A stretch of 64,000 nt of DNA from Terriglobia bacterium. Its GTDB lineage: Bacteria; Acidobacteriota; Terriglobia; 20CM-2-55-15. The stretch is from contig CBDAOY010000005.1 of assembly GCA_965198225.1 (NCBI GenBank), positions 800,001-864,000 of the forward strand, given 5' to 3'. This document shows, one piece after another, positions 10,698 through 51,264 of this stretch. The position numbers were made by a program, and so were the translations under genes. Each line of letters begins with the position of its first letter. Position 1 is the stretch's first letter. The notes under the pieces are model-generated. The model saw only the letters and a program-made list of their open reading frames with translations, did not search any database and was not told where the DNA came from.

Positions 10698-11188
10698 GTG
10701 CGCCGTGAAAGGCGCCATTCCCCAGCGGGTGCGAACCCCGCCCGGCAACTGTCGCTCCAGCCGGTAGCAGTCGGAGCGGACGATGGAGGTAACGACATCG
10801 GCTGAAGCACTCCGATGACAAAGGGCCGCCCTGGGCGGTTCAGCGACCACGCGGGCCGCAACGATGTGAACGCTGCGCAGGCCTCGTAACGAAGCGATGC
10901 GGAAGCCGATCCGCCCGGAATACGGGGAAGGCTGCCAGCGGTCGGGAAGCGAGCGACGCGAGCACCGACCGGTTCCGCCGGGGTAGTAGCGGCGGCACGT
11001 GTGGAAGGGGGGGATGGACGCAACACGGGAAGCCCTGCCGGTGGCGTGGCATGCGCCAACCGACAGCCCGCGAGGGTCAGGTTGGGCCGACAGGGTGGCG
11101 GAGAGGTCCGCAGTACCAGGGAAGCCGGGTAATGCCGGTGGAGGGAAGGGACCTCAGTTCGAGAGCAGCGCATGACGGAGGAAGGGAC

Positions 11189-12415: not shown

Positions 12416-12867
12416 TCTCGTCCGAGAGCCGGATGCGGGAAATCTGCATGTCCGGTTCGATGAGCGTTGCGCCTTGCAAGCGCATGAGATCCAGTCGCCT
12501 GAGATGGCGGCCGTGGCAGAGCCTAGCCGGCAGCCACGTACCGAGTCTTGCGTGGTGGTCGGTGACGGACACTGCGAAGCGTAGACAGGGAGGGAGTAGG
12601 CCGGAACACCAGTGAACGGAAAGATAGCCCCGAAATCGAACGTGGTTGAAGTAGCCGACCCTGTCGCTCTAGGGGGAAGGCGGAATCGCAGGGCACGCAA
12701 TGGCAAGTGCCCTGGGGTGCTTCCGGGGTTCGTACCGCCGGCATGCAACCAAGGATTTCATGGGAACAAGGGAGATCCGTCAGGTTCAAGCGGAGCTTGT
12801 AGGGTTGGACAAGCCAACAACGCGAGGAAGACCCGAAGGCCTGTCGGAAGTCAGACTGGCTGATAGT

Positions 12868-13771
12868 GCGTGCCTGGCAGCACGCGTTTCCGGCGGGTTA
12901 AAGTCCCGCTCGGCCCGAGGCCACGGGTCGATATCCAACAAGTGGGGGTAATGCCTCACTGGCCGAAGTGTAGACAGGTAGTGCAGATGCCTAAACGGGC
13001 ACGAAGGCGAAAGCCGGATACGGCCAAGGCAAAGCTGGAGCCAGCTACGGAAACTTTGGAGGGCAGGGCGCCCACCGCGAGGTGGGGTCTGAAGGGCATG
13101 AGGAGAACCACCGGGTCGTAATCGACGGGAGCCATCCCGAGGATGAACCGGTCGGCCAAAGATGGGGAATGGTCGAGCCCGCACTATTGGGGCGAAGGCG
13201 CATTGGTTCCACCCCATCGCACCAAGGTGTGTGCGGGCGACACGGTGGAGAAGAGACGCGAGTGACCCAGGGAGGCCTGGTATCGTCCGAGCGGAAGGTA
13301 AGGTCGAGATGATGTGGCACCCGCAGACGAAAGGGCGGGCAACCGAGAAGACAAACATCGACCTAGAGCCCTGCGCGGTAGGTGCGGATATAAGCGAGAG
13401 CGAAATTCCGGCCGACGCGGTGTCAGGAATCGGATCGGGGAATAGTACTCAGGAACGAGACGGCAAACATAAGGTCTCGGATCGTTGCTTCGAGCAGCGG
13501 CGCTGGCGGGTCCAAAAGGCCCGTTGGAGGGGGAAGTCCCCGTACTCAGTCGTGAATGTGCGAGCGATGGGAAACGCGGAGATATCGTGAACTTGGATAG
13601 TTCCCTTAGCGAAAGACCCAAACGCGGTACGAACGAAGCCGCCACCTGCCGCCACACAGCGAATTCCGAACGAGGAGCAACTGAGGAAAGCGGCTTGCGG
13701 GAAAACCGCACGAGCCGTTTGATTGAGCGGACGGTGGAAGGGCCGATCGGCCCGACCACTTTCGACTCTAC
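12868..13771 (+). ncRNA. ORF-less group II intron 3 (~904 nt)
   Basis: 5' GCGTG; EBS1 loop ACTATT 13183-13188 followed by GAAGG; DV GAAAGCGGCTTGCGGGAAAACCGCACGAGCCGTTT; 3' CTCTAC; no RT ORF. Confidence 0.85.
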
Positions 13772-14096
13772 ACTCAGGAACGAGACGGCAAACATAAGGT
13801 CTCGGATCGTTGCTTCGAGCAGCGGCGCTGGCGGGTCCAAAAGGCCCGTTGGAGGGGGAAGTCCCCGTACTCAGTCGTGAATGTGCGAGCGATGGGAAAC
13901 GCGGAGATATCGTGAACTTGGATAGTTCCCTTAGCGAAAGACCCAAACGCGGTACGAACGAAGCCGCCACCTGCCGCCACACAGCGAATTCCGAACGAGG
14001 AGCAACTGAGGAAAGCGGCTTGCGGGAAAACCGCACGAGCCGTTTGATTGAGCGGACGGTGGAAGGGCCGATCGGCCCGACCACTTTCGACTCTAC
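13447..14096 (+). repeat. Tandem direct repeat of the 325-bp DIII-DVI half of intron 3
   Basis: 13447-13771 and 13772-14096 appear identical by eye (ACTCAGGAACGAG...CGACTCTAC). Confidence 0.92.
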
Positions 14097-14198
14097 ACTC
14101 CGAGGTCGGGAGAGCCGATCACATGGGGAAGCGGCCAGCAGAAGTGGACTCGTTCTTGGGAAACATGAGCTCCATGCAACGGGAGGATACGGTCCTCT

Positions 14199-15545
14199 AT
14201 GCAACGAGAGGAACAACCAGTCATGGAAACGAAACTGGAACGAATAGCGGCGAAAGCTCGGAGTGAGCCAAAGCTCCGGTTCACGTCACTGGCGCATCAT
14301 GTCACCCGAGAGCGTGTGTGGAAGAACCTGTGTCAAGTGCCCCGCAACACGGCTCCCGGATGTGATGGTCAGAGGGTACCGGAGGCGAAGGAGGAATTCG
14401 GAGTCTGGGTGGAGCCAATGCTCCAGTCTGTTCACCAGAAGGGATATCGCGCTCCGCCGATTCGGCGGGTGTATATCCCCAAGCCCGGCAAGCAGGAGAA
14501 ACGTCCCCTGGGCGTGCCCTGTGTTCAAGATCGGGCCCTTCAGCGCAGCGTGGCCGAGGTATTGGTCGCCATCTACGAGCAGGACTTCTTGCCCTGTTCC
14601 TTTGGTGGCCGGCCTGGGCTGGGCGCCCACAATGCACTGGCAACCCTCCATGAGGTGATTTCCGGATGCAAGGTGAGTTGGGTGTTGGAGGCGGACTTGA
14701 AGAACTTTTTCGGGAGTTTAGACCATGGATGGCTACTCCGCTTTGTGGAGCATCGAGTCGGAGATCCGCGGATCATCAGTCTGATACGACGATGGTTAAA
14801 GGCGGGCGTTTTCGAAGACGGGGAATTGCATTCGAACGAAGAGGGAACCCCGCAAGGTGGGTCGATCAGCGTTCTGCTGAGCAATCTGTACCTGCATTAT
14901 GTGCTTGACCTGTGGTTTGACCGGATGGTCCGGCCACGCCTGAAGGGTGAAGCGTATCTGGTGCGGTACATCGACGACTTTGTCGTGTGTTTCCAATATC
15001 GGGACGATGCGCTTCGTTTCCAGAACGTTCTGCGCAAGCGACTGGGAAAGTTTGGACTGGTTCCGGAGCCGACCAAGACGAAGCTCGTCGAATTCGGCCG
15101 CTATGCCCAGCGCGATGTCGTCCGGCGCGGGAGAAAACGTCCAGAGACGATCTATTTTCTGGGCATGACCCTGTACTGTACGCGTAATCGCAAAGGCAAT
15201 TTTAGAGTGGGACTGCGAACAGAGAAGTCTCGACTTCGACGCAGTCTGGCTCATCTACGCGGCGTGATGAGGCGAATGCGTCACTTGCCGGTCCGGGAGC
15301 AAGTGCACAATCTGAACCGAGTCTTGCGCGGGCACTACGCCTACTATGGCATTGCCGGGAACCTCCGGGCTCTGCAGCACGTCGCTCGGGCCGTGGAACG
15401 TTACTGGCGCCAAATGCTCAGCAGTCGTAGTCGTGCAGGCTTCGTCCGGTGGGAAGTATTCAACCGGATTCAGCTGCACTTTCCGTTACAGCGTCCCAAG
15501 TTGGCTCTCCGCTATCGGGAGTTCCAGTCTCTCGCTGTGCTGTAA
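14199..15545 (+). CDS. Intron 2 reverse transcriptase/maturase (no endonuclease domain)
   Basis: RPLGVP..DRALQ, LEADLKNFF, GTPQGGSIS, RYIDDF, domain X (LRGHYAYYG). Confidence 0.93.
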   Translation: MQREEQPVMETKLERIAAKARSEPKLRFTSLAHHVTRERVWKNLCQVPRNTAPGCDGQRVPEAKEEFGVWVEPMLQSVHQKGYRAPPIRRVYIPKPGKQEKRPLGVPCVQDRALQRSVAEVLVAIYEQDFLPCSFGGRPGLGAHNALATLHEVISGCKVSWVLEADLKNFFGSLDHGWLLRFVEHRVGDPRIISLIRRWLKAGVFEDGELHSNEEGTPQGGSISVLLSNLYLHYVLDLWFDRMVRPRLKGEAYLVRYIDDFVVCFQYRDDALRFQNVLRKRLGKFGLVPEPTKTKLVEFGRYAQRDVVRRGRKRPETIYFLGMTLYCTRNRKGNFRVGLRTEKSRLRRSLAHLRGVMRRMRHLPVREQVHNLNRVLRGHYAYYGIAGNLRALQHVARAVERYWRQMLSSRSRAGFVRWEVFNRIQLHFPLQRPKLALRYREFQSLAVL

Positions 15546-15631
15546 ATCCAATTCTGAAGAGCGCAGTGCGGGAAATCCGCACGCTGCGTTCTGTGGGAGC
15601 CGGAGGCGGGCAACTGCCTCCGGCCACCCGG

Positions 15632-17038
15632 GCGGATTCGGGCGCCGATTTTGAGAAGCTTCAGACGGATGGTCCCGCACTGGGCATGGGCCATCGCGGT
15701 ATCTTTGAGCCCGAGGCGTCGCAGGGCATGCATGAGCATGTACGCAGCTGAGGAGAGATAGAGCCGGAGCTGATTGGCGCGCATGGTCGCCGCGCTGGTC
15801 CGGTCCGCAAATAGGTCCAACTGCTGTTCCTTGATACGGTTCTCCATGTCGCCCCGCGCGCAGTAGAAGTCCTCATACAAAGCGCGGGCTTGGAAGCGTT
15901 CCGGCGGCAGGGAGGTCACGATGAATCGGGGATTGGCGCCCTTGTCCAGGAACTCCGCCTTGCCGACGACGCGTCGCGCGCGGGTCCAGCTGTTTAGAGT
16001 CCGGTACTGGAAATCCTTAAACACCCGCGCCGGTTTCCCGGTGGCGTTAAACTCCGCTTCCGCCTGAACCATTTCTTCAGCGATTTCTTGCTTGAGACGA
16101 CTGTTCTTGGCCAACCCGATCACATAATCGACCGGATGGGATTCACACCAGGCGAGCAGTTCATCCCTGCAAAAGCCCGAGTCGGCCCGGATGATGATCG
16201 ATACTGTGGGCCACACCTGTCGGATCTGACCGACGATGCGCTCTAACTCATCCACCGCTCCGTCGGCCCCGTCAATGTTGGAACGCCGGAGCCGGGCGCA
16301 CAGCAGATGTTCTCCCGAGAAGATGTACAACGGCAGGTAGCAGTAGTTGCCGTAGTAGCCGTGAAAGAACCGTCCTTCCTGGTTGCCATGGATCGTATCG
16401 TCGGTGGCATCCAGGTCCAGAACGATCTCAGAGGGCTCCGATTCGTGGGCCGCGATAAACGCGTCGACCATCCACCGGTCGATCTTGTCGCCATCCATGG
16501 CGATCTTCTTGTACCGCTCCTGGCCATCGACCTGCTCTGCGGTCAGTTCCAACCGGTTCAGCGTGCACTTGCCTGCCAACGCCTTTCCCCGGTCTCCGGC
16601 CTGCCGCCGGTTTTTTCCCAGTGGATCGGCCTTCTCCACCGCCACGGCCAGCATCGGATCGGTCCGTAGCTGGTCGTGGTCGTTCAGGTCCTCATAGCCC
16701 AAGCACAGTCCATAAATCCGCTGGCCCAACAACTCCTTCACGCTGTGTTCGATCAACCTCGGGTCCCGGTGATCGGTAAAACACTGCTCCAGTCCGGCGA
16801 TCAAACCCGTCCGCTTCTCGACTTCCCTCAACAGCAGAACACCCGCGTCGGAGGTGATCTTTCCGCCGTCGAATCGCGCCTTCACTTTCCGTTGAAAAAG
16901 TCCGTGAAATTCGAACGTGGCTTGCTTACACTCTGTTCTCATAAGGGCCGTCTCCGTTTGGGTTTTTAAACGTTTCTCGTCAAACGCTTTATGCCAAACA
17001 GGGCGGCCTTTTCTGGTCCTATCCGTGAAATATAGGGG
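15632..17038 (-). mobile_element. IS1380-family element, transposase 15632-16942 truncated at C-terminus
   Basis: FDGGKITSDAG, LGYEDLNDHD, IVLDLDATDD, IRADSGF, YCARGDMENRIKE; one terminus near 17038, the other replaced by intron 2 3' end. Confidence 0.9.
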
Positions 17039-18769
17039 CTAGCCGGCAGCCACGTACCGAGTCTTGCGTGGTGGTCGGTGACGGACACTGCGAAGCGTAG
17101 ACAGGGAGGGAGTAGGCCGGAACACCAGTGAACGGAAAGATAGCCCCGAAATCGAACGTGGTTGAAGTAGCCGACCCTGTCGCTCTAGGGGGAAGGCGGA
17201 CACTCCGAGGTCGGGAGAGCCGATCACATGGGGAAGCGGCCAGCAGAAGTCGACTTCGGATCTTGGGACTCCCGAGCTCAATGCATTCCGGGACACGGGT
17301 CTATGCAACGAGTCGGCTACAACGTCCAGATCGCTGAAACGACACTGAGCACGAACCTGATCGCCGAACAGCAGGTCGGAGTGAGCCAAGGTCTCCGGTT
17401 CTCGGTCACTGCTCGCATCATGTCACGGCGACAGCGGTCGTGGAAGAACCTGTGGCAAGTGCGACGCAGATCGACGGTCGCGGATGTGATGGCTCTACAA
17501 GTATCGAAGACGATTGAGGACTTCGAAGCCGCCGTGGAGCCAATGCTCCTAGTCTGTTCCAGAAGCCCGATATCGGCGCACGGCCAGATTCGGCGGGTGT
17601 ATATCCCCAAGCCCGGCAAGCAGGAGAAACGTCCCCTGGGCGTGCCCTGTGTTCAGCGATCGGGCCCTTCATCGCGCAGCGTGGCCGAGGTATTGGTCGC
17701 GCATCTACGAGCACGTACTTCTTGTCAGTTACTTTGGTGGCCGGCCTGGGCTGGGCGCCCGCAATGCAGAGGCTGCGGTCATGACGCGATTTCCGGATGT
17801 ACCAAGAACACCTATCGGCGCATGGACGCGACTTCGAAGAACTTTTTCGGAAGTTTAGACGATGGATGGCTACTCCGCTTTGTGGAGCATCGAGTCGGAG
17901 ATCCGCGGATCATCAGTCTGATACGACGATGGTTAAAGGCGGGCGTTTTCGAAGACGGGGAATTGCATTCGAACGAAGAGGGAACCCCGCAAGGTGGGTC
18001 GATCAGCGTTCTGCTGAGCAATCTGTACCTGCATTATGTGCTTGACCTGTGGTTTGACCGGATGGTCCGGCCACGCCTGAAGGGTGAAGCGTATCTGGTG
18101 CGGTACATCGACGACTTTGTCGTGTGTTTCCAATATCGGGACGATGCGCTTCGTTTCCAGAACGTTCTGCGCAAGCGACTGGGAAAGTTTGGACTGGTTC
18201 CGGAGCCGACCAAGACGAAGCTCGTCGAATTCGGCCGCTATGCCCAGCGCGATGTCGTCCGGCGCGGGAGAAAACGTCCAGAGACGATCTATTTTCTGGG
18301 CATGACCCTGTACTGTACGCGTAATCGCAAAGGCAATTTTAGAGTGGGACTGCGAACAGAGAAGTCTCGACTTCGACGCAGTCTGGCTCATCTACGCGGC
18401 GTGATGAGGCGAATGCGTCACTTGCCGGTCCGGGAGCAAGTGCACAATCTGAACCGAGTCTTGCGCGGGCACTACGCCTACTATGGCATTGCCGGGAACC
18501 TCCGGGCTCTGCAGCACGTCGCTCGGGCCGTGGAACGTTACTGGCGCCAAATGCTCAGCAGTCGTAGTCGTGCAGGCTTCGTCCGGTGGGAAGTATTCAA
18601 CCGGATTCAGCTGCACTTTCCGTTACAGCGTCCCAAGTTGGCTCTCCGCTATCGGGAGTTCCAGTCTCTCGCTGTGCTGTAAATCCAATTCTGAAGAGCG
18701 CAGTGCGGGAAATCCGCACGCTGCGTTCTGTGGGAGCCGGAGGCGGGCAACTGCCTCCGGCCACCCGGT
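17039..18769 (+). pseudogene. Second, 5'-truncated copy of intron 2 with deletion and chimeric segment
   Basis: 17039-17200 matches 12523-12685; 17860-18769 matches the 3' part of the first copy; ends ACCCGGT. Confidence 0.85.
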
Positions 18770-25312: not shown

Positions 25313-25936
25313 TTGGACGCCGCCTTGAAAACCGTCGCTTACCTCCGCGTCTCCACTCGTTCGCAGGACCTCGCCAACCAGAAGCTGGCGATCCTCGAGT
25401 TCAGCCAGAAACGCCGATTCCCGATCGACCAATTCATCGAGTCCCGGATCTCGTCGCGCAAGAGTCCGCTCGAGCGCCGCATTGACGAGATGTTGGGGAC
25501 GCTTCAGCCCGGCGACCGTCTGCTGGTCAGCGAGTTGTCGCGGCTCGGCCGCAGCCTCTCTCAGGTGATCCAGCTCGTGGAGACCCTGGTCCGGCGCAAG
25601 ATCCGCTTCATCGCCATCAAGGAGGCGATCGAGTTCGACGGCAAGCAGGACCTGCGGACTAAGGTGATGATCGCGCTGTTCGGATTGTTTGCCGAGGTCG
25701 AGCGGGACCTGATCTCAGAACGGACCAAGGAAGGACTCGCCTCTGCCAAAGCCAAGGGGAAACGGCTCGGCCGACCCAAGGGGGCCTTGGGAACATCCAG
25801 GCTCGACGGCAAGGAGCAAGACATCCGGGCGCTGTTGGGCAAGGATGTCTCCAAGGCCTCGATCGCCAAGATCCTGAACGTCTCCCGCTCCGCCCTCTAC
25901 CACTTTATCGAGACCCGCAAGATCGCTCCGGGCTGA
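25313..25936 (+). CDS. Serine recombinase/resolvase
   Basis: AYLRVST, VSELSRLGRS, AEVERDLISERTKEGL, LGRP, C-terminal HTH; exact start uncertain. Confidence 0.92.
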   Translation: MDAALKTVAYLRVSTRSQDLANQKLAILEFSQKRRFPIDQFIESRISSRKSPLERRIDEMLGTLQPGDRLLVSELSRLGRSLSQVIQLVETLVRRKIRFIAIKEAIEFDGKQDLRTKVMIALFGLFAEVERDLISERTKEGLASAKAKGKRLGRPKGALGTSRLDGKEQDIRALLGKDVSKASIAKILNVSRSALYHFIETRKIAPG

Positions 25937-25973
25937 CCCCAAGGCTCGGACCGCACTTATGTTGTATTTCAAC

Positions 25974-26166
25974 GTGCACCGTGAGAAGGCGCCAATCCTC
26001 AGCGGGTGCGAATCCCGCCCGGCAACTGTCGCTCCAGTCGGTAGCAATCGGAGCGGATGGTGGAGGTAACAACATCGTCTGAAGCACTCCGATGACAAAG
26101 GGCCGCCTCGGGCGGCTCAGCGACCACACAGGCCACAACGCGAGTAAACGCCGAGCAGGCCTCGTA
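25974..26166 (+). pseudogene. 5' fragment (domain I) of an intron-1-family group II intron
   Basis: GTGCACCGTGAGAAGGCGCC... closely similar to 10698-10888; cut by IS110 end. Confidence 0.85.
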
Positions 26167-27304
26167 TGTGGACGCCCCCCTGGTTGGCAAGCCTGACTTC
26201 GAACCGAGGATCGGTGGCATTCAGGTCAGGTACGGTCGTATGTGCGGCCTCTTGATGCGGCACTTGCTGGCCGCGGGCCCGTATGGTGTTCGTGAGATCG
26301 GATCCAAATCGAAACGACGGGCTCGATGGCCCTTCGAGGCCTACTGGTTTTTCCGATCCCGTCTTGTCGACCGTTTGCCCCTACCTTGTCCGACGTCCTG
26401 CTTGCACTCTCCAGTTGGAACCTCCGTGGCCCGTGTCCATCCGCCCAGGCTGCCAGCCGAACGAGTTCCTCTCTCTTCTCCGCGTTTCTGATCTCGCCGA
26501 CCCTTCTTCGCTCCACTGATCTGACTCGCAACCCTACGCTGTAGCCGCAACGGCCTTTGTCATTCCCCGTGCCCTGTAGCTCTCCACCTTCACCGTCATG
26601 GCCCAGATGATGCGTGCCATCCTGTTGGCCAGAGCCACCGCAACCACCTTCCTCGGCTTTTCGTCCAGCATCCGGCCAAGCCAGGGATCGGGGACCTCCC
26701 TCCGCCGGATGGCACTCGAGATGACCGCCGTCGCCCCCAGGCACAGGAGCCTCCGGATGTCGCGCTGTCCCATCTTTGTGATCCCCCCCAGCCGTTGGCG
26801 ACCACCCGTCGAGGATTCACGCGGCGTGATCCCGACCCATGCCGCAAAGTCACGTCCATTACGGAAGCTCTCCATTGGTGGCGCGAACGCGTGCACCGCC
26901 ATTGCCGTGAGCTCTCCCACCCCTGGGATCGTCATCAGGCGCCCGAGCGCCTCATCTTCCCTCACGATGTGCCGGATCTCCCGGTCCAGCTCATCGATCT
27001 CCGCATCCAGATCGTGGGTCCGCTCGATGAGGCGGCGTATAGCGGGAGGCACCAGCGCCGGGAAACACTCTTCACGCTCCGCGAACACCTCCTCCAGCCT
27101 CCCGACGTTGTGGGTCCCAAGCGGAGCGACGAGTCCGAACTCCGCGAGATGACCCCGCAGCGCGTTGATCGTCTGTGTCCGCTGGTGCACCAGCATTGCC
27201 CGGGCCCGGAACACCACCGATCGTGCCTGCTCCTCCTCGGTCTTCACGGCCACGAACCGCATCGTCGGCCGCTGGGCCGCCTCGACGATCGCTCCCGCGT
27301 CGTT
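26165..27304 (-). mobile_element. IS110/IS1111-type element, 5'-truncated; recombinase 26534-27304 plus downstream non-coding region
   Basis: MRFVAVKT, NALRGHLAEFG, TIPGVG, SSTGG, VALANRMARI; right end GGGGGCGTCCACATA. Confidence 0.88.
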
Positions 27305-27342
27305 GGGGTCATCGCAAGGTTTGTACCTGAAATTACTCTAAG
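27305..27342 (+). repeat. Tn3-family 38-bp terminal IR
   Basis: GGGGTCATCGCAAGGTTTGTACCTGAAATTACTCTAAG (38 bp); truncates the IS110 gene. Confidence 0.75.
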
Positions 27343-27349
27343 GGAGGAT

Positions 27350-27738
27350 CTGGCGAATAATTGGACTGCGGAGCCTCGTTGATCAATCCGATCAGGATGC
27401 TGCGGCCCTCGTCGGTATGGAATGCCGCCCGGGCGGCGAGATCAATCGCCGTTCCCCTGTCGTCGGGCACGAAGGGCCGCAGCCCAAGGTGCCGGATGGC
27501 CAACTGCCTGTGGGACGAACGCGTCGCGTTCCGGGTGCCGTAACCAGCCAGGGCCGAGGTGACGAAGAAGCGCGATATGAATCGCCAATCCAAGCCGGTT
27601 TTCAGCGCTTCTCCGCGTGCAGATCAGATCCAGATCGTCATCGGCCAGAACGTAATTCCGTTCCAGCGAGGCGGTGTCGGAGAGAACCCCGAACAAGGTT
27701 TCGCGAACGGAGGCCGACACTAGATGTCGTGAAGCCAT
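27350..27738 (-). pseudogene. Tn3-family transposase N-terminal (DUF4158-like) remnant
   Basis: YVLADDDLDLICTRRSAENRLGLAIHIALLRH. Confidence 0.7.
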
Positions 27739-27864
27739 GGCATGTCCCAAAAATGCTGGGGTCTATTTTGAGACTGCCCATAATATAGAAACGAATAAAG
27801 AGACACTTCGAAAGCCCGGAATGGAGGTGAAATGGCCCATCCTGAAACCGTCCCTGAAACGAAC

Positions 27865-29580
27865 CAGACTGTGTGAAAAGTCCAAGTCGTGGATCGCTGA
27901 TCCGGCAACACCGAAGGGCAAGCACGATGACGGACCCGTGGCGACGCAGATCACTCGGGGCTGCCAGCCTTTTCGGTGGCGTGAGGTGTTGCTGTGACTG
28001 GGAAACGCGGGATGGAGGCGGATTGTTGCGCCAAAAACAGGCGGATTACCCGGTCAAACCGCTGCGACGGCAATCAAGGCGGGAATTCCTACGAGGTTGA
28101 TTGCGCGGCGCATGTTGTAGGCCAAGGCGGTGAGGCTGAACTCCCCGCGGACATTGCCGAGTCGGCGCGTCAGGAACGCGCCTTGGCCCATCCACTGCTT
28201 GATCGAACCGAAGGGATGCTCGACCGACTCCCGGCGACGATCCATCACCTCGGGCCGGGCGGCGAGACGGTTCGCCATGCGCTCCATCGTTGCTTCGTTC
28301 TCGAAGCGCGTGATGCGCCGATAGGTGTTCTTGGTACATCGTTCGCGTAGACCGCAGCCTCTGCATGCGGCGCGGTTGGCGTAACTGACAAGATACGTGC
28401 CTGTGCGCGACTTACCGACGCTTCCGCGATACAACGGCACCAGGCGCTCACCAGCGGGGCACCGGTAGGTGTCCGTGGAGTCGTCGTATTGGAAATCGGA
28501 CTTCGGAAAGTGGCCACTGCGTCTGGCCGTGCTCCGGTCGGGCTTCGGAACGTAGGGCGTGATCCCGGCGGCTTCGCAGTCCTCAATGTCTTCGATCTTG
28601 TAGTAGCCTCGGTCCGCGACCGCGTCGATCTCGTCGACAGCCAAGTTCTCCCGAGCCGCTGTGGCCGTCTCCGCGAGCAGACCGAGGTCCGAGACCTTGC
28701 TATGGACCTGCTGTTCGGCGATCAGGTTGTGCTCAGTGTCGACAGCGATCTGGACGTTGTAGCCGACTCCGACCCGTGTCCCGGAATGCATTGACCGGGA
28801 GTCCGGATCCGTAAGCGACAGCTGGGCTTCTCCGGTATCGTCCAGCGTCTGCCGATGCCCCTCCAAGGTCTCCTTTCTCTTACGGATCGATGCGATCTTC
28901 TCCTGAAGATCCGCCACGGCAGCCGCTCTGCCGCCGGCATCATCCGCGTCGGCCTCGTTCACCTGGTCGAGGTAGCGGTCGAGTCGGTCGTCGATACGCT
29001 GCAGGTCCGTCTTCAGCTTGGCCCGCGTGAAGTTGCGGTCCCGGTGGTTCACCGCCTTGATGCGCGTGCCGTCCACGGCGATCAACTCCCGCCCGTACAG
29101 GTCGAGTTCCCGGCACAACCGCACGAACCGCCGAAACACCGCCCGGAACGCATGCCGATTGTCGCGCCGGAAGTCGGCGATCGTCTTGAAGTCGGGCTTC
29201 AGCTGGCGTAGCAGCCAGATCGCCTCGAGGTTGCGATGCGTCTCTGTCTCCAGCCTGCGGCTCGACCGAATACGATTCAGATACCCGTAGATATACAGCT
29301 TCAGCAGATCCGCGGGATCGTAGCCTGGACGGCCCTTGTCGTTGGGCCGAACGCGCTGGAATCCAGCCGCCTCAAGGTCGAGACCGTCGACGAATGCATC
29401 AATGAAACGGACCGGGTTGTCCGGTCCCACGTAGTCGTCCACAGTATCGGGCAGAAGCAGAAGCTGGGAACGGTCTTCACCGGTGATATGTGCCATGACA
29501 CATTTTACCAACCGCCATGGGGAACCTGATGCCAGTTCACCGACTCCCGCCCGGCTGTCGCCGACTTTTCACACAGTCTG
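27865..29580 (-). mobile_element. IS1182-family element, intact (transposase 28054-29511)
   Basis: IRs CAGACTGTGTGAAAAG / CTTTTCACACAGTCTG; 4-bp GAAC duplication; PDFKTIADFRR, AVDGTRI, VEHPFG. Confidence 0.95.
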
Positions 29581-38007: not shown

Positions 38008-40563
38008 AACCTTGTTGCATGGATCATCCCGAAGGATGCCTTATCATCGTGTTTTTCAACACCGGGGATAACTTAGATGCCACATAAGTTTAACGCAGCC
38101 CGACGGCACAAGTTTGATAAGGCGCAGTATCGGGTGATCAACTGGGCGGAATATAACGAGAGCCTGCGCCAGCGGGGTGATCTGACGATCTGGGTCAGTG
38201 AGGAGGCTCAAAGTGTGTGGAGCGCGCCGCGCCGCACGTCACGGGGTGGCCAGCGGAGATACTCGGATCTCGCGATCGAGACATGCCTGACGCTGCGCAC
38301 GGCGTATCGGCTTGGGTTGCGACAAACGCAGGGGCTGATGGGTTCCATCGGCACGCTCATGGGGCTGGATATACGGGTGCCGGACTTCTCCACACTGTCG
38401 CGTCGTGCAAACGGCTTGAGCATCGCTCAGGTGATGAGGCAAGCCGGGTCTGTGGCTGTCCATCTGGTGGTGGACAGTACCGGCCTCAAGATCTTCGGCG
38501 AAGGGGAATGGCTCGCGCAGAAGCATAAAATCAAGGGAATACGCCGCCGCTGGCGCAAACTCCACCTCGGACTGGACCTGGCCAGCGGTGCGATTGTTTG
38601 CGCCAATCTGACTCACGATGACGTTGGAGACAGCACTGCATTACCTGATGGGATGGACTCCTCCTTGATGACTGAGTCGGCATCGTAGTGCCAAAGTCAT
38701 TGTGAAGCCTCGCGATGGTGCGGGCTAAACACGAGGACGTGTAAACAAGAAGGAGTCCGAGATGAAGAGTAAAACGATCGCAGTGGATCTGGCAAAGAAT
38801 GTTTTCGAGATTGGGATTTCCGACCGCCCCGGGCAGATGACGAAGACATACCGTTTAAGCCGGGGAAAGTTCTTGTCGTTTTTTGCGAATCAGGAGCTGG
38901 CGACGGTCGTGATGGAAGCCTGCAGTGCCGCCCATCACTGGGGACGAGAGATCCAGAAACTGGGGCACACAGTGGTACTGATTTCACCGCAGTATGTCCG
39001 GCCCTACGTACCGAGGAGTAAGACGGATCGGGCGGATGTAAAAGGGTTGCTGGAGGCCCACCGGAATGCCGATATTCGGGCGGTACCCATTAAGACGGTG
39101 GCGCAACAGCAACTCACCGCCCTGCACCGCATCCGGTCGACCTGGATGCGGACCCGGACGGCGCGCATCAACATGGTGCGGGGGCTGCTGGGAGAGTTTG
39201 GGCTCGTGCTGCCGACGGGAGCCCGGCGGCTGGTGCCCGGAGTCATGGGGTTGATCGAAGATGCGGATGTTGAGATCCCCATGACCGTACGCGTCATGTT
39301 CTCGGAAGTGTGCACCGAAATCCGCGAGCTGGAGGCACGCATTCAATCGGTGGAGCGGGAGTTGGAAGCCCTGGCCCGTCAGATGCCCGAGGTGGCCCGT
39401 CTGCGCTCGATCCCTGGAATCGGGCTGTTGACTTCCACGGCGATGGTAGGTTTTGTCGGTGACCCCCGACGGTTTCGATCCTGTCGCCACTTTGCCAGTT
39501 ATCTGGGACTCACCCCGCGTGAGCGTTCGAGCGGAAACCGGCGTCGGCTGGGAGCGATCAGCAAACAAGGCAACGTCTACCTGCGGATGCTGCTCATACA
39601 CGGTGGCCGCACTCTGCTATGGAGTGCGCATCGAAAAGGGGCGCAACCTTCGGCTCTGCAGAAATGGGGTCTCCGTCTCCACACACTCCGCGGGCACAAC
39701 ACGGCCACGGTTGCTTTAGCCAACAAACTGGCCCGCACGGTTTGGGCCGTCTGGACACAGGACACGGCGTACGAGGCTGACCGACGGGCGGCCTGACACC
39801 ATGACTGTAGGAACATCCTTTCAGTAGACTGCGACGACGTTCGAGTTGATGACGTACCGGTCAGACCGGCGCGGGGAAACGCCGGAGAAGCCGTGGCCCC
39901 TGGAGGCCGTTTACCCGGTTGGCACCCCGCGCGCGAATTTCATCATGGCCCGGAACTCAAACGTTCCATTCGAGAGGCCGAAGATACGGATGCAGTCGAT
40001 CTGTCACTCAACTCGAAAATCAAATATCAGGATGCTGAAAAGAATCTTCGGGAAAAGGATATGGGACAGCTGCGCCTACTTGACAGGAGGAGTCCAGATA
40101 CGGCTCCTGGATCAACTCGATGCCCCGGTCACGGGCTTTCTGGCTGACGGCGCCTATGATGGAGCTCTACACGAGATCTGCTGAGGGAACGGTATGGGGA
40201 GACCCTGGATGTGGTTATACCGCCGCCAAAGAACGCAGTGATCCGACCGCAATCGGCGCGGGATCCAACCGATCGGGATCGCCATATTGCTCAGATCCGC
40301 AGCAACGGACGCATGGCCTGGCAACTGGCCACAGGGTACAACCAGCGCAGCCGGATAGAAACGCAGATCGGCCGTTGGAAGAGCGTCATCGGCCCCAAGC
40401 TCAAATCCCGCAGCTTCTCCAGGCAAATCACGGAGATCCAGGTCGGCCAGAAAGTTCTGAACACAATGACCGCACTCGGACGGCCTGTGTTCGAACGTAT
40501 CGCCTGACGCTACCGCTTGGGAAAGGGCGAATTCCATCTCCGCCCCGATCCATGCAACAACGC
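38008..40563 (+). mobile_element. IS5-family (IS903-like) element interrupted by IS110
   Basis: IRs TTGTTGCATGGATC / GATCCATGCAACAA; NWAEYNESLRQRG, VDSTGLK, WRKLH; 3' part ADGAYD, GYNQRSRIET. Confidence 0.9.
38646..40099 (+). mobile_element. IS110/IS1111-type element, intact (recombinase 38762-39796)
   Basis: AVDLAKNVF, VMEAC, KTDRAD, SIPGIG, RSSG, VALANKLAR; subterminal IRs TGGACTCCTCC / GGAGGAGTCCA; ~300-bp downstream non-coding region. Confidence 0.92.
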
Positions 40564-49564: not shown

Positions 49565-51264
49565 AGATCGACCGGTCCAGTTACGGGGAACATTTCGGAC
49601 CCACCACGGGCGATCGGGTGCGGCTCGGGGATACCGACCTGTTCATCGAGGTCGAATCGGACCACAGCGTCTACGGTGAGGAGGTCAAGTTCGGCGGAGG
49701 CAAGGTCATCCGCGACGGCATGGGGCAATCCGCGTCAGCGTCCCGCGAAGCCGGCTCTCCCGACCTCGTGATCACCAACGCGCTCGTCATCGATCATACG
49801 GGTATCTTCAAAGCCGACATCGCCGTTCGCGACGGCAGGATCTCCGCAATCGGCAAGGCCGGGAACCCCGACATCATGGATGGCGTTACCGAAGGGATGG
49901 CGATCAGCGCATCCACGGAGATTCTCGCGGGCGAGGGACGCATCGTCACGGCCGGCGGTATCGACGCCCACATCCATTTCATATCGCCGAATCAGATTCC
50001 GGAGGCATTCTATTCCGGCGTCACGACCCTGATCGGCGGTGGCACCGGGCCCGCGACGGGGACGAACGCGACGACCTGCACGCCCGGCCCGTGGAACATC
50101 CGACGCATGTACGAGGCGTCTGAGGCATTCCCGCTGAATTTTGGCTTTCTCGGGAAGGGGAACTCTTCGCTGCCAGGAGCTCTGGAAGAACAGATCCGAG
50201 CCGGCGCTCTCGGCCTGAAGCTCCATGAAGACTGGGGAACGACGCCGGCGGCGATTGATCAATGTCTGACAGTCGCCGACCGGTTCGACGTCCAGGTCGC
50301 GATCCACACCGATACGCTCAACGAAGCCGGGTTTGTAGAGGACACGATCGCTGCGTTCAAGGGAAGAACGATCCACACCTACCACACCGAGGGCGCCGGG
50401 GGCGGCCATGCTCCCGACATCATCCGCCTCTGCGGCGAATCGAACGTCCTGCCCTCCTCGACCAATCCCACGATGCCCTTCACGCGGAACACGATGGACG
50501 AGCACCTGGACATGCTGATGGTGTGCCACCATCTGTCGGCATCCATCCCTGAAGACGTCGCGTTTGCCGACTCGCGGATTCGAGCCGAAACGATCGCGGC
50601 CGAGGACATCCTGCACGACATGGGTGCTTTCAGCATCATGGCCTCCGACTCCCAGGCCATGGGCCGGATCGGTGAAGTCATCTGCCGGACCTGGCAGACA
50701 GCCGACAAGATGAAGAAGCAGCGCGGACGTGTCGACGAAACCGGTGACAATGACAACGTCCGGGCCAAGCGCTACGTGTCGAAGTACACGATCAACCCGG
50801 CGATCGCACACGGCATTGCCGGAACGGTGGGATCGGTCGAGGTCGGGAAGATGGCGGACCTGGTTCTGTGGAAACCGGCCTTCTTCGGCGTGAAGCCGGA
50901 GGTCATCGTGAAGGGTGGGTTCATCGCGGGGGCTGCCATGGGTGATGGGAACGCGTCGATCCCCACGCCGCAGCCCTACGTCTACCGGCCGATGTTCGGC
51001 CATCATGGCCAGGCGCTCGATTCGACTTCCGTGCACTTTGTTTCGCAGGCCGGGGTGGAGACCAACGGGCTCGACGGACTGCGCCGCAGACTCGACCCCG
51101 TCCGCGGCTGCCGTACACTCGGCAAGAAAGATCTCAAGTGGAACGATGCGACACCCAATATCGAAGTCAACCCGGAGACCTACGAAGTGCGCGCCGACGG
51201 TGAGCTGCTGACCTGCGACCCGGCCGAAATACTTCCCCTGGCGCAACGTTACTTCCTTTTCTGA
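49561..51264 (+). CDS. ureC: Urease subunit alpha
   Basis: [46 protein letters not shown]. Confidence 0.98.

What the first reader, a model, noticed from the sequence alone, without database searches (positions are those of the whole stretch)
25974..26533. IS1111-type element whose putative guide RNA targets group II intron domain I
Seen: the IS right end abuts intron sequence GCAGGCCTCG(TA) at ~26165. In IS orientation the downstream non-coding region reads ..AGTAGGCCTCGAA-GGGC..GCCC-GTCGTTTCGA.. One loop segment (26335-26342) is the exact reverse complement of the 8-bp flank. The other (26310-26317, CGAAACGA) matches 7/8 the missing opposite flank as preserved in intact intron 1 (CGAAGCGA, 10890-10897). 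Established: IS110/IS1111 recombinases use bridge/seek RNAs with two short target guides. Inference: an RNA-guided recombinase programmed against a retroelement ribozyme, a target class I do not recall being described.
Basis: partly seen in the sequence, partly recalled or inferred. Interest (0 to 1): 0.8.

Follow-up and report, generated by a model that had tools for sequence, protein, structure and literature searches.

The report
RNA-guided IS aimed at an intron
A jumping gene of the IS1111 type carries a small guide RNA whose two short guides spell out one conserved 13-base site inside a self-splicing group II intron, so one mobile element uses RNA guidance to land inside another.

Summary
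Window 26165-27312 (minus strand) is a 5'-truncated copy of a 1512-bp IS1111-type element. Two full copies lie elsewhere in the genome. Its 369-nt 3' non-coding end encodes a seekRNA/bridge-RNA-like fold. The two guides sit in one internal loop: AGGCCUCG (26335-26342) and CGUUUCGA (26309-26316). Together they specify the 13-mer AGGCCTCGAAACG.

- **Target distribution:** that 13-mer occurs only three times in the 6.4-Mb genome, all in unoccupied copies of one group II intron subtype. The other three copies of that subtype carry the IS at exactly this site.
- **Covariation:** across relatives, the guides change together with the flanks (110/156 and 83/100 matched positions; 0 of 10,000 permutations reach either value).
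- **Other records:** relatives with the same guides sit in the same intron site in another genome and in a metagenome contig.
- **Nature of the site:** it is a conserved domain I motif of this intron class.
- **Second element:** a second IS1111-type element (37% identical transposase) hits another site in the same intron.

The mechanism is the known one; the target class appears undescribed in the literature I could search. The window copy itself is dead (no left end, no DEDD N-terminus) but keeps an intact guide RNA gene. RNA expression and transposition were not shown.

The parts
25974..26164 (+). 5' fragment (first 191 nt) of a group II intron, subtype A. It ends at the IS junction; the rest of this intron copy is missing.
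   Evidence: Rfam RF02003 group-II-D1D4-4 at 26000-26143, 82.8 bits. It is 99-100% identical to the same segment of 5 other copies in different genomic contexts. Intron start GTGCAC at 25974.
26157..26164 (+). Right half of the IS target (AGGCCTCG). The last 3 nt, TCG (26162-26164), are the core shared with the IS.
   Evidence: Empty versus occupied sites. The empty-site joint in public contigs skips 1512 nt, with 3 shared letters.
26165..27312 (-). 5'-truncated copy of the IS1111-type element 'IS-A' (positions 365-1512 of the full 1512-bp element). The left end and the first 87 codons of the transposase are missing.
   Evidence: BLAST to full copies G000:C4:145763-147274 and C5:746553-748064. 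There are 19 substitutions in the 1148 shared nt against the C4 copy.
26534..27312 (-). Transposase remnant (residues 88-348) including the stop codon. It holds only the last third of the DEDD domain plus the Transposase_20 domain.
   Evidence: Pfam PF02371 at 2e-21. PF01548 matches only profile positions 94-152. Residues 88-348 match at 95% identity.
26165..26533 (-). 3' non-coding end (right end) of the IS, 369 nt.
   Evidence: No Rfam family matches it at E<=10.
26168..26179 (-). Right subterminal inverted repeat (GTGGACGCCCCC on the + strand). Its partner is in the left end of the full copies.
   Evidence: Conserved in relatives.
26221..26381 (-). seekRNA / bridge-RNA-like region, made of a target-binding module followed by a donor-binding module.
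   Evidence: Conserved in 15 distinct homologous sequences (A2). In the consensus fold, 96% of cells are paired against 26.5-49.2% when the partner is slid, and 4 pairs show compensatory changes.
26335..26342 (-). 5' target guide, RNA AGGCCUCG. It is complementary to the IS-orientation top strand CGAGGCCT (core plus right target).
   Evidence: It covaries with the right flank in relatives: 110/156 positions, 0/10,000 permutations.
26309..26316 (-). 3' target guide, RNA CGUUUCGA. It has the same sense as the top strand CGTTTCGA (left target plus core), so it pairs with the bottom strand.
   Evidence: It covaries with the left flank: 83/100 positions, 0/10,000 permutations.
26319..26332 (-). Inner hairpin of the target-binding module (GGGC-CAUCGA-GCCC).
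   Evidence: Helix 3; GC to AU/UA compensatory changes at columns 55/70.
26296..26359 (-). Whole target-binding module, from the outer stem GGAUCGG (26353-26359) to its partner CCGAUC (26296-26302).
   Evidence: Helices 1-2 are 97.5-98.3% paired across 15 sequences. Coordinates.
26280..26289 (-). Putative 5' donor guide, RNA ACACCAUACG. It is imperfectly complementary to the left end CG-ATGGAGTG.
   Evidence: Conserved in relatives. A sibling element in L012 reads CUCCAU here, a 6-nt perfect complement to its left end. This assignment is tentative.
26236..26244 (-). Putative 3' donor guide, RNA CACAUACGA. It equals right end plus core plus the first base of the left end.
   Evidence: for coordinates. 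It covaries with the right end in 2 relatives: L067 (AUAUACG with end CCATATA) and the inner IS of L012 (AUAGACG with end CCATAGA).
10879..10897 (+). Equivalent region of the window's other intron (subtype B): AGGCCTCG-TA-ACGAAGCG. It is not a target and is unoccupied.
38646..40100 (+). Copy of a second IS1111-type element, 'IS-B' (1455 bp), here inside an IS5-family transposase gene. Two of its 4 identical copies lie in the same intron family at another site.
11127..11128 (+). Empty IS-B target in the window's subtype B intron (…AAGCCG|GGTAATGCC…).

Best explanation
Window 26165-27312 (minus strand) is a decayed copy of an IS1111-group (IS110 family) insertion sequence that chooses its target with an RNA encoded in its own 3' non-coding end.

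How it works:
- **The RNA.** It has two stem / internal-loop / hairpin modules.
- **Target loop.** The 5' guide AGGCCUCG pairs with the top strand of the target (core plus right half). The 3' guide CGUUUCGA pairs with the bottom strand (left half plus core). The two overlap on the palindromic core TCGA. Together they specify CGTTTCGAGGCCT, which is AGGCCTCGAAACG on the intron's sense strand.
- **Donor loop.** The second module carries conserved segments that match the element's own joined ends.
- **Reaction.** The DEDD/serine recombinase would excise the element as a circle. Guided by this RNA, it would recombine the circle junction with the target at the CG core.
- **Result.** The insert is 1512 bp, in a fixed orientation (antisense to the intron), flanked by the 3-nt repeat TCG.

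The target is a conserved motif in domain I of a multicopy group II intron class. The IS therefore lands only in intron DNA: a repeated site that the host does not need and that the ribozyme's own constraints keep unchanged.

Shown here by sequence:
- element anatomy and exact junctions against empty sites
- exclusivity of the target
- guide-flank covariation
- conservation of the fold

Inferred from published IS1111/IS110 work:
- that the RNA is made and bound by the transposase
- the circle intermediate
- the strand-exchange chemistry

The window copy itself cannot transpose. It could still supply the guide RNA in trans.
For: 1. Family features in the full copies:
- 348-aa protein with PF01548 plus PF02371. 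NCBIfam NF033542 'IS110 family RNA-guided transposase' scores 320 bits against a cut-off of 140.
- 96-nt 5' end against a 369-nt 3' non-coding end.
- 12-bp subterminal inverted repeats.

2. Junctions.
- The empty site is GCAGGCCTCGAAACGCAC.
- The occupied site is GCAGGCCTCG|TATGTGGACG…CGTCCACTCCAT|CGAAACGCAC.
- Public contigs from 4 of 4 laid runs contain the empty form, skipping exactly 1512 nt with 3 shared letters.

3. Exclusivity.
- The 13-mer occurs 3 times in 6.4 Mb, all in empty subtype A introns.
- 3 of 6 subtype A copies are occupied, and 0 of 3 subtype B copies.
- The six copies lie in six unrelated contexts.

4. Covariation in relatives fetched from 68 genome loci.
- 26 distinct 5'-guide/right-flank pairs match at 110/156 positions (permutation mean 48.8).
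- 20 distinct 3'-guide/left-flank pairs match at 83/100 positions (permutation mean 39.4).
- 0 of 10,000 permutations reach either value.
- Some pairs do not match (L020, L030, L038, L041, L076 on the right side).

5. Same guides, same target. L013 and L014 (transposase 85% identical, a different genome) and the metagenome contig L084 have the intron flank on both sides. RF02003 lies next to the right end in L013 and L014. L084 was not scanned with Rfam.

6. Closer relatives (87% identical: L012, L018) have different guides and different, matching flanks.

7. Fold. 25 proposed pairs are 96% paired in 15 sequences, against at most 49.2% when slid. The guides lie in the internal loop.

8. Guide order. 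The top-strand match is 5' of the bottom-strand match and the two overlap in the target. This is as described for IS1111 seekRNAs in PMC11187229, section 'A seekRNA finds the target'.

9. The target is a conserved intron motif.
- GCCTCG is invariant in 14/14 aligned introns.
- The exact 13-mer is present in 7 of 21 RF02003 loci inspected from relatives.
Against: - No RNA evidence. No promoter-like site was found in 26100-27400. Only one low-depth RNA-run contig touches the guide region, and it belongs to a diverged relative.
- No circle junction or other sign of current activity was seen.
- The helices are mostly invariant, so structural covariation is modest (4 of 25 pairs).
- 5 of 26 right-flank pairs match at no more than 2 of 6 positions. 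These may be rearranged loci, or places where my automatic end-calling failed.
- The 5' donor-guide assignment needs a bulge and a mismatch.
- The three occupied introns could in principle descend from one insertion.
- The junction was found in only 1 of 401 sampled genomes of the phylum, the window's own. The intron-targeting lineage is therefore rare in what was searched.
Confidence: 0.9

Rival explanations
1. The guide-flank matches are coincidence. The IS has some protein-determined site preference, and the non-coding end has no targeting role.
For: No RNA or biochemical data were obtained here. The helices are largely invariant, so the fold rests mainly on conservation.
Against: Both 8-mers occurred within 60 nt of each other in 0 of 200,000 shuffles. 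Guides and flanks covary across relatives, with 0 of 10,000 permutations reaching the observed match on either side. The architecture and guide order equal those of experimentally shown IS1111 seekRNAs.
Confidence: 0.01
2. There was only one RNA-guided insertion. The three occupied introns arose later, by copying an already occupied intron (segmental duplication, recombination between intron copies, or retromobility of the composite). The '3 of 6 occupied' figure would then overstate targeting activity.
For: The three IS copies are 98.3-99.5% identical. The intron 5' segments are 99-100% identical. Recombination between dispersed intron copies is plausible in this repeat-rich genome.
Against: The exon-side sequence is unrelated in all six copies (19-33% identity), which excludes segmental duplication. 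A 1.5-kb insert in domain I should disable the ribozyme needed for retromobility (established knowledge of group II introns, not tested here). The same site is occupied in another genome whose intron variant and guide differ slightly (L013, L014).
Confidence: 0.12
3. The intron is an incidental carrier of a short sequence. The element simply follows any repeated 13-mer, with no specific relation to group II introns.
For: The second element, IS-B, behaves this way. 2 of its 4 copies lie in the intron and 2 in an IS5-family gene. A relative with the same guides in another genome (L158) sits in flanks that differ from the intron's beyond the roughly 12-nt target, and no Rfam family was found at L158 or at 19 other IS-B-like loci. 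Close relatives of IS-A target quite different sequences, including sibling ISs.
Against: For IS-A, every occurrence of the target in this genome (6 of 6) is in the intron. Both other records with these guides are also in the intron site. The site is a conserved motif of the intron class across several genera, so it is a stable and transferable target rather than a chance repeat.
Confidence: 0.2

Closest known systems
IS1111-family seekRNA elements (ISEc11, ISPa11, ISKpn4, ISPst6; Siddiquee et al. 2024, PMC11187229; sections 6, 9 and 13 read)
   Same: - Transposase of 330-350 aa with DEDD and C-terminal domains, and the G-x-x-P-x-x-x-x-(S/T)-G motif (GITPRESSTG here, read directly from P0001).
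- Subterminal inverted repeats.
- Long non-coding region downstream of tnp.
[quoted passage not shown]
   Different: The target. The described members go to REP elements, attC sites and other sequences. Here the target is a conserved domain I motif of group II intron DNA. RNA production, co-purification with the transposase and transposition were not shown for this element.
IS621 / IS110-group bridge RNA (Durrant et al. 2024, PMC11208160; passages read)
   Same: A two-module RNA with a target-binding loop and a donor-binding loop. Each loop reads both DNA strands around a short core, and both are programmable by base changes.
   Different: In IS621 the RNA is encoded in the left end, upstream of the recombinase, and the subterminal repeats are 2-3 bp. 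Here the RNA is in the right end and the repeats are 12 bp. That paper notes that many IS1111 donor guides sit in a multiloop; here the donor segments flank a GGCC-closed hairpin.
IS1111 members that target other mobile elements: IS4321/IS5075 (terminal repeats of Tn21-family transposons) and the IS1111-attC group (integron attC sites). Titles seen in the reference list of PMC11208160; details recalled.
   Same: They are site-specific and orientation-specific. They insert into a functional, conserved sequence of another mobile element, which supplies many copies and a ride between hosts.
   Different: The host element here is a retroelement, and the site encodes part of its ribozyme. Insertion should destroy splicing and mobility of the carrier, not just occupy its end or recombination site.

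Membership tests
IS1111 group of the IS110 family | N-terminal DEDD (RuvC-like) domain plus C-terminal Transposase_20 domain | tested here: met
   Full copies: PF01548 at 2.9e-15, PF02371 at 1.2e-21, and NF033542 at 320 bits (cut-off 140). The window copy keeps only profile positions 94-152 of PF01548.
IS1111 group of the IS110 family | Transposase length 330-350 aa and the G-L/x-x-P-x4-S/T-G motif (PMC11187229, section 6) | tested here: met
   348 aa. GITPRESSTG was read in the printed sequence of P0001.
IS1111 group of the IS110 family | Subterminal inverted repeats of 7-17 bp, a few bases inside the ends | tested here: met
   GTGGACGCCCCC / GGGGGCGTCCAC, 12 bp and perfect. It lies 3 nt inside the right end and 5 nt (7 counting the core CG) inside the left end. 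Conserved in relatives.
IS1111 group of the IS110 family | The longer non-coding region lies downstream of tnp | tested here: met
   369 nt on the 3' side against 96 nt on the 5' side.
seekRNA / bridge RNA-guided recombination | An RNA loop with two guides complementary to opposite strands of the target, overlapping at the core, and covarying with the target among relatives | tested here: met
   for IS-A. The same pattern is seen by eye in the IS-B family (no permutation test).
seekRNA / bridge RNA-guided recombination | A second loop complementary to the element's own joined ends (donor) | tested here: inconclusive
   The 3' segment CACAUACGA equals right end plus core and covaries with the right end in 2 relatives. 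The 5' segment fits the left end only with a bulge and a mismatch.
seekRNA / bridge RNA-guided recombination | The RNA is expressed, binds the transposase and is required for transposition | not testable with these tools
   No raw RNA reads of the organism were available. Contigs of RNA runs cannot show it.
seekRNA / bridge RNA-guided recombination | Match to a curated RNA family model | tested here: not met
   No Rfam 15 family matches 25900-27400 apart from the intron model, even at E<=10. This says only that no such model matched; the library may hold none for IS1111 RNAs.
Group II intron (the target) | Ribozyme 5' domain model, and an RT/maturase ORF in complete copies | tested here: met
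   RF02003 at 26000-26143 and at the other copies. RVT_1 plus GIIM in the ORF of the window's subtype B copy. An RT ORF follows the IS in L002.
Group II intron (the target) | The target lies within domain I | tested here: inconclusive
   The site is at intron nt 184-196, about 300 nt before the RT ORF. In the RNAalifold fold of 10 introns it lies inside a closing helix that has compensatory changes (columns 44-48 with 339-343). GCCUCG pairs with an invariant CGGGGU. No curated domain annotation was available.

The most novel reading that the evidence does not exclude
IS1111-type RNA-guided elements act as hyperparasites of group II introns. By aiming at an invariant ribozyme motif that the intron cannot change without losing function, they disable intron copies at the DNA level. 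This would limit intron spread in genomes that carry dozens of copies.

The 3' guide is also complementary to the intron RNA (UCGAAACG), so the same RNA might interfere with intron folding in trans.

Two observations point to a network of RNA-guided targeting among mobile elements:
- two unrelated IS1111 elements hit one intron family;
- two sibling ISs target each other's end and guide-RNA gene (L012).
Probability: 0.1. Interest if true: 0.8.

Novelty: new member of a known kind. Interest (0 to 1): 0.5.

Why it matters
It adds a natural target class to RNA-guided recombinases: the ribozyme-coding DNA of a retroelement. It also gives a clean natural example of how the guides are re-written. 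Relatives 85-87% identical in protein carry different guides and sit in different targets.

The choice of an invariant functional motif as the target explains how such an element can keep finding its site across intron copies and across species.

For people who annotate genomes, it explains why these introns are found broken at one fixed position. For people who engineer bridge or seek RNAs, the family offers about two dozen natural guide/target pairs on one conserved scaffold.

Tried and rejected
- **Rfam, 25900-27400, E<=10.** Nothing matched the non-coding end. The weak snoRNA/sRNA rows are chance-level.
- **Promoter/terminator scan.** No sigma-70-like site on either strand. This is uninformative for this organism.
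- **Dinucleotide-preserving shuffle control.** It timed out. I replaced it with mononucleotide shuffles.
- **My first intron reference (C6:838732).** It has an internal deletion and nested repeats. For a while this suggested a second insertion hot spot at its position 313/314. Comparison with the window's intron showed the gap is the reference's own deletion, except for the true IS-B insertion.
- **IS-A in 40 relatives.** No relative above 41% identity was found outside the window's own genome.
- **Junction pattern in 401 genomes of the phylum.** Found only in the window's own genome. This is 'not found in those searched', not absence.
- **Rfam on 20 IS-B-like loci from relatives.** No family matched, so IS-B relatives there are not in RF02003/RF02005-type introns.
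- **IS-C (G000:C4:92214-93570).** Its guides match a non-intron flank.
- **Laid contigs.**
  - Parts of the IS have no cover in the two RNA runs; that proves nothing.
  - One 345-nt contig of an RNA run overlaps L002 1613-1701 with 8 differences at depth 6. It is from a relative and shows neither strand nor ends.
- **Literature.**
  - Searches, and passages read, gave no report of an IS110/IS1111 element aimed at a group II intron.
  - Supplementary files (for example the target logos of PMC11187229 and Supplementary Table 5 of PMC11208160) are closed. They may list such a target without naming it.
- **Not done.** Structure prediction, complex prediction and the large protein searches were not used, because family membership was already clear.
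Full report
**What is at the locus.**
- On the plus strand, a resolvase gene (25313-25936; Pfam Resolvase) comes first.
- At 25974 the 5' end of a group II intron begins (Rfam RF02003 group-II-D1D4-4 at 26000-26143, 82.8 bits).
- Alignment with the other RF02003 intron of the window (10698 onward) shows that the homology stops after GCAGGCCTCG at 26164.
- From 26165 upward, the minus strand carries the right end, the 369-nt non-coding region and the C-terminal 261 residues of an IS110-family transposase. Only the last third of the DEDD domain is present, plus Transposase_20.
- Homology to the full copies ends at 27312.
- Beyond that lie a frameshifted Tn3-family DUF4158 fragment (27333-27762, minus) and an IS1182-like transposase gene (28054-29568, minus).
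- The window copy is therefore a 5'-truncated, immobile remnant.

**The full element.**
- The same genome has two complete copies, G000:C4:145763-147274 and C5:746553-748064. They are 99.5% identical to each other, and the window copy is 98.3% identical to them.
- The element is 1512 bp counting one copy of the core.
- It has a 96-nt 5' end, a 348-aa transposase and a 369-nt 3' non-coding end.
- The transposase scores PF01548 plus PF02371, and NCBIfam NF033542 'IS110 family RNA-guided transposase' at 320 bits against a cut-off of 140.
- Perfect 12-bp subterminal inverted repeats, GTGGACGCCCCC, lie 3 nt inside the right end and 5 nt inside the left end, 7 nt counting the core CG.
- These are the defining features of the IS1111 group as listed in PMC11187229 (section 6) and PMC11208160 (passages).

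**Exact junctions.**
- Three uninterrupted introns of the same subtype (L004-L006) read GCAGGCCTCGAAACGCAC.
- The occupied ones read GCAGGCCTCG|TATGTGGACG…CGTCCACTCCAT|CGAAACGCAC.
- The insertion is thus precise, with TCG (CGA in IS orientation) present on both sides.
- Contigs of four public runs contain the empty form as a joint that skips exactly 1512 nt with 3 shared letters. This confirms the boundaries independently.
- In IS orientation the target is GTGCGTTT-CG-AGGCCTGC.

**The guides.**
- The RNA sense of 26296-26359 reads GGAUCGG-AAAAA-CCAG-U-AGGCCUCG-AA-GGGC-CAUCGA-GCCC-GU-CGUUUCGA-U-UUGG-AUCCGAUC.
- The first guide is complementary to the top strand CGAGGCCT (core plus right half).
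- The second guide has the sense of the top strand CGTTTCGA (left half plus core), so it pairs with the bottom strand.
- They overlap on the core, and the top-strand match lies 5' of the bottom-strand match. This is exactly the arrangement reported for the seekRNAs of ISEc11, ISPa11 and ISKpn4 (PMC11187229, section 9).
- Its one slip was to take the missing flank from the window's other intron, which is a different subtype. There the site is split by two extra bases: AGGCCTCG-TA-ACGAAGCG.
- With the cognate flank, the second match is 8/8 rather than 7/8.
- In 200,000 shuffles of the non-coding end, the two 8-mers never occurred within 60 nt of each other.

**Test by relatives.**
- I fetched 68 genome loci and 30 metagenome loci encoding relatives of the transposase, at 32-87% identity.
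- The last ~240 nt of the non-coding end is conserved in many of them.
- An alignment shows conserved helices around two hypervariable stretches at the positions of the two guides.
- Automatic parsing gave 40 target loops in 36 distinct combinations.
- **Right side:** in 26 distinct pairs, the six bases beyond the core on the right flank equal the reverse complement of the 5' guide at 110 of 156 positions (permutation mean 48.8).
- **Left side:** in 20 distinct pairs, the five bases before the core on the left flank equal the 3' guide at 83 of 100 positions (permutation mean 39.4).
- None of 10,000 permutations reached either value.
- **Misses:** L020, L030, L038, L041 and L076 match at 0-2 of 6 positions on the right side. 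L062 and L075 match at 2 of 5 on the left. Several of these loci are visibly nested or rearranged, and I did not resolve them.
- **Same guides, same target:**
  - L013 and L014 come from a record titled as a Longimicrobiales MAG, with a transposase 85% identical. The metagenome contig L084 is the third case. All three have the intron sequence on both sides.
  - RF02003 lies next to the right end in L013 and L014; L084 was not scanned with Rfam.
- **Different guides, different target:** closer relatives (87% identical: L012, L018) have other guides and other, matching flanks.

**The fold.**
- RNAalifold on 15 distinct sequences gives two modules.
- With a slightly extended hairpin, 25 pairs are 96.0% paired. 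Sliding the partner by 1-3 columns gives 26.5-49.2%.
- Four pairs show changes on both sides.
- The covariation score exceeds all 500 column shuffles. That control is known to be lenient for related sequences.
- Most helix positions never vary, so the fold rests more on conservation and on likeness to the published architecture than on covariation.
- **Donor module:**
  - A GGCC-closed hairpin is flanked by ACACCAUACG and GCACAUACGAC.
  - The latter equals right end plus core plus the first base of the left end.
  - It changes together with the right end in two relatives: L067, and the inner element of L012.
  - The former fits the left end only imperfectly. A sibling element reads CUCCAU there, a perfect 6-nt complement.
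  - I regard the donor assignment as likely but not settled.

**The target is the intron, and a conserved part of it.**
- AGGCCTCGAAACG occurs three times in the 6.4-Mb genome, all in empty subtype A introns.
- With the three occupied copies, 6 of 6 sites are in the intron.
- The six copies sit in six unrelated contexts (exon-side identity 19-33%), while their first 190 nt are 99-100% identical.
- RF02003 introns occur in 19 of 40 related genomes searched (14 above the cut-off), with up to 44 copies in one genome.
- In 21 such loci that I inspected, the exact 13-mer is present in 7, from four genomes. One-base variants are present in most others.
- GCCTCG is invariant in 14 of 14 aligned introns.
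- The site lies at intron nt 184-196, inside a consensus closing helix that has compensatory changes. GCCUCG pairs with an invariant CGGGGU.
- This supports 'domain I', though not with a curated model.

**A second element on the same intron.**
- In L003 the same intron copy is interrupted a second time, 240 nt further on, by a 1455-bp IS1111-type element. I call it IS-B; its transposase is 37% identical.
- Its target loop has the same design: GAAGCCG – GGCC hairpin – UUACCCGG. It matches TTACC|CGGCTTC.
- It has four identical copies. Two are in introns and two in an IS5-family transposase gene, one of these in the window at 38646-40100.
- Of seven empty CATTACCCGGCT sites in the genome, five are in intron copies.
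- Relatives of IS-B show the same guide-flank rule by eye.
- A relative with IS-B's guides in another genome (L158) sits in flanks that differ from the intron's beyond the target, and no Rfam family was found at L158 or at 19 other IS-B-like loci.
- IS-B therefore uses the intron as one carrier among several. IS-A, as far as seen, uses only the intron.

**How it most likely works.**
- *Shown:* the anatomy, the precise orientation-specific insertion with a 3-nt shared core, the exclusive target, the programmable guides and the conserved scaffold.
- *Inferred from the published systems (PMC11187229, PMC11208160):*
  - excision as a circle that joins right and left ends across the core;
  - binding of the 3'-end RNA by the transposase;
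  - pairing of the donor loop with the junction and of the target loop with both strands of the intron site;
  - strand exchange at CG.
- A conserved TTGCCA sits 18 nt before the right terminus in relatives. Together with TA-CG-AT across the junction, it could make a promoter only in the circle, as is known for other IS110-family members. This is my inference and is untested.
- Insertion is antisense to the intron and should wreck its ribozyme.
- The window copy lacks the left end and the catalytic N-terminus, but its guide region differs from the C4 full copy (L002) at only three positions, none in a guide or helix. These are window 26348, 26451 and 26465.

**Novelty and limits.**
- The mechanism is the known one. 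What seems new is the target class.
- I found no paper in the held library that describes an IS110/IS1111 element aimed at a group II intron (searches; passages).
- 'Intron' does not occur in the main text of PMC11208160 or of the 2026 preprint 10.64898/2026.08.14.744561.
- Supplementary tables were closed and may hold unlabelled cases.
- No expression or activity data could be obtained.
- **Verdict:** a real, well-supported, ordinary-mechanism RNA-guided IS with an unusual and biologically sensible target. Interest is moderate.

Noticed in passing
window 38646-40100 (+), with flanks 38077-38645 and 40101-40500: A complete copy of a second IS1111-type element (IS-B, 1455 bp, 344-aa transposase) sits inside an IS5-family transposase gene (DDE_Tnp_1_5 / DDE_Tnp_1). 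An equivalent insertion is at G000:C4:355365-356817. Its left core reads TG while the target has CG, so there is no visible duplication.
   Followed up: partly
L012 2877-5830 (record titled as a Longimicrobiales MAG): Two sibling IS1111 elements are nested and appear to target each other.
- An IS-A-like element sits 31 nt inside the left end of a sibling, and its guides match …GACGGCAT-CG-CAATG….
- A complete copy of that sibling (1390 bp, right end CCATAGA) sits inside the donor-loop region of the IS-A-like element's guide RNA gene. Its flanks there are ATCAAGAGGC-CG-CACATACGAC, and its own guides match them.
   Followed up: partly
window 12502-18769: A second group II intron class is present in two copies.
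- RF02005 lies at 12502-12736 and 17013-17221; RF00029 lies at 15557-15633 and 18694-18769.
- Near-identical RT ORFs lie at 14199-15545 and 17228-18682; the second looks damaged at its N-terminus.
- A 476-aa transposase-like ORF lies between them on the minus strand (15512-16942).
- The first copy starts right after, or inside, the subtype B intron. The region is a stack of nested mobile elements.
   Followed up: no
window 49707-50005 (-): Full-length Rfam match to 5_ureB_sRNA (RF02514, 85.2 bits, model positions 1-292). That family is described from a very different bacterium. The match probably reflects conserved ureB coding sequence read antisense rather than an sRNA.
   Followed up: no
window 27333-27762 (-) and 28054-29568 (-): A Tn3-family transposase N-terminus (DUF4158), split by a frameshift, is fused directly to position 365 of the truncated IS. 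Next to it is an intact-looking IS1182-like transposase gene (DUF772, DDE_Tnp_1_6). What event joined the Tn3 fragment to the IS was not worked out.
   Followed up: no
window 26182-26191 (-) and the same place in relatives (alignment): A conserved CTTGCC/CTTGCA lies at a fixed distance from the right terminus in relatives. With the bases across a circle junction (TA-CG-AT) it would give TTGCCA-18-TACGAT, a possible promoter formed only in the excised circle.
   Followed up: no
L002 1400-1585 and 3074-3250 (intron parts): In two metatranscriptome runs and two other runs, the intron segments flanking the IS are covered at summed contig depths hundreds to thousands of times higher than the IS. 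Relatives of this intron are therefore very abundant in those samples, and probably transcribed.
   Followed up: no
G000:C6:838732-842191: This otherwise uninterrupted subtype A intron copy lacks about 0.8-0.9 kb (the end of the 5' ribozyme part and the start of the RT ORF) relative to the other copies. It is followed by internally duplicated segments.
   Followed up: no
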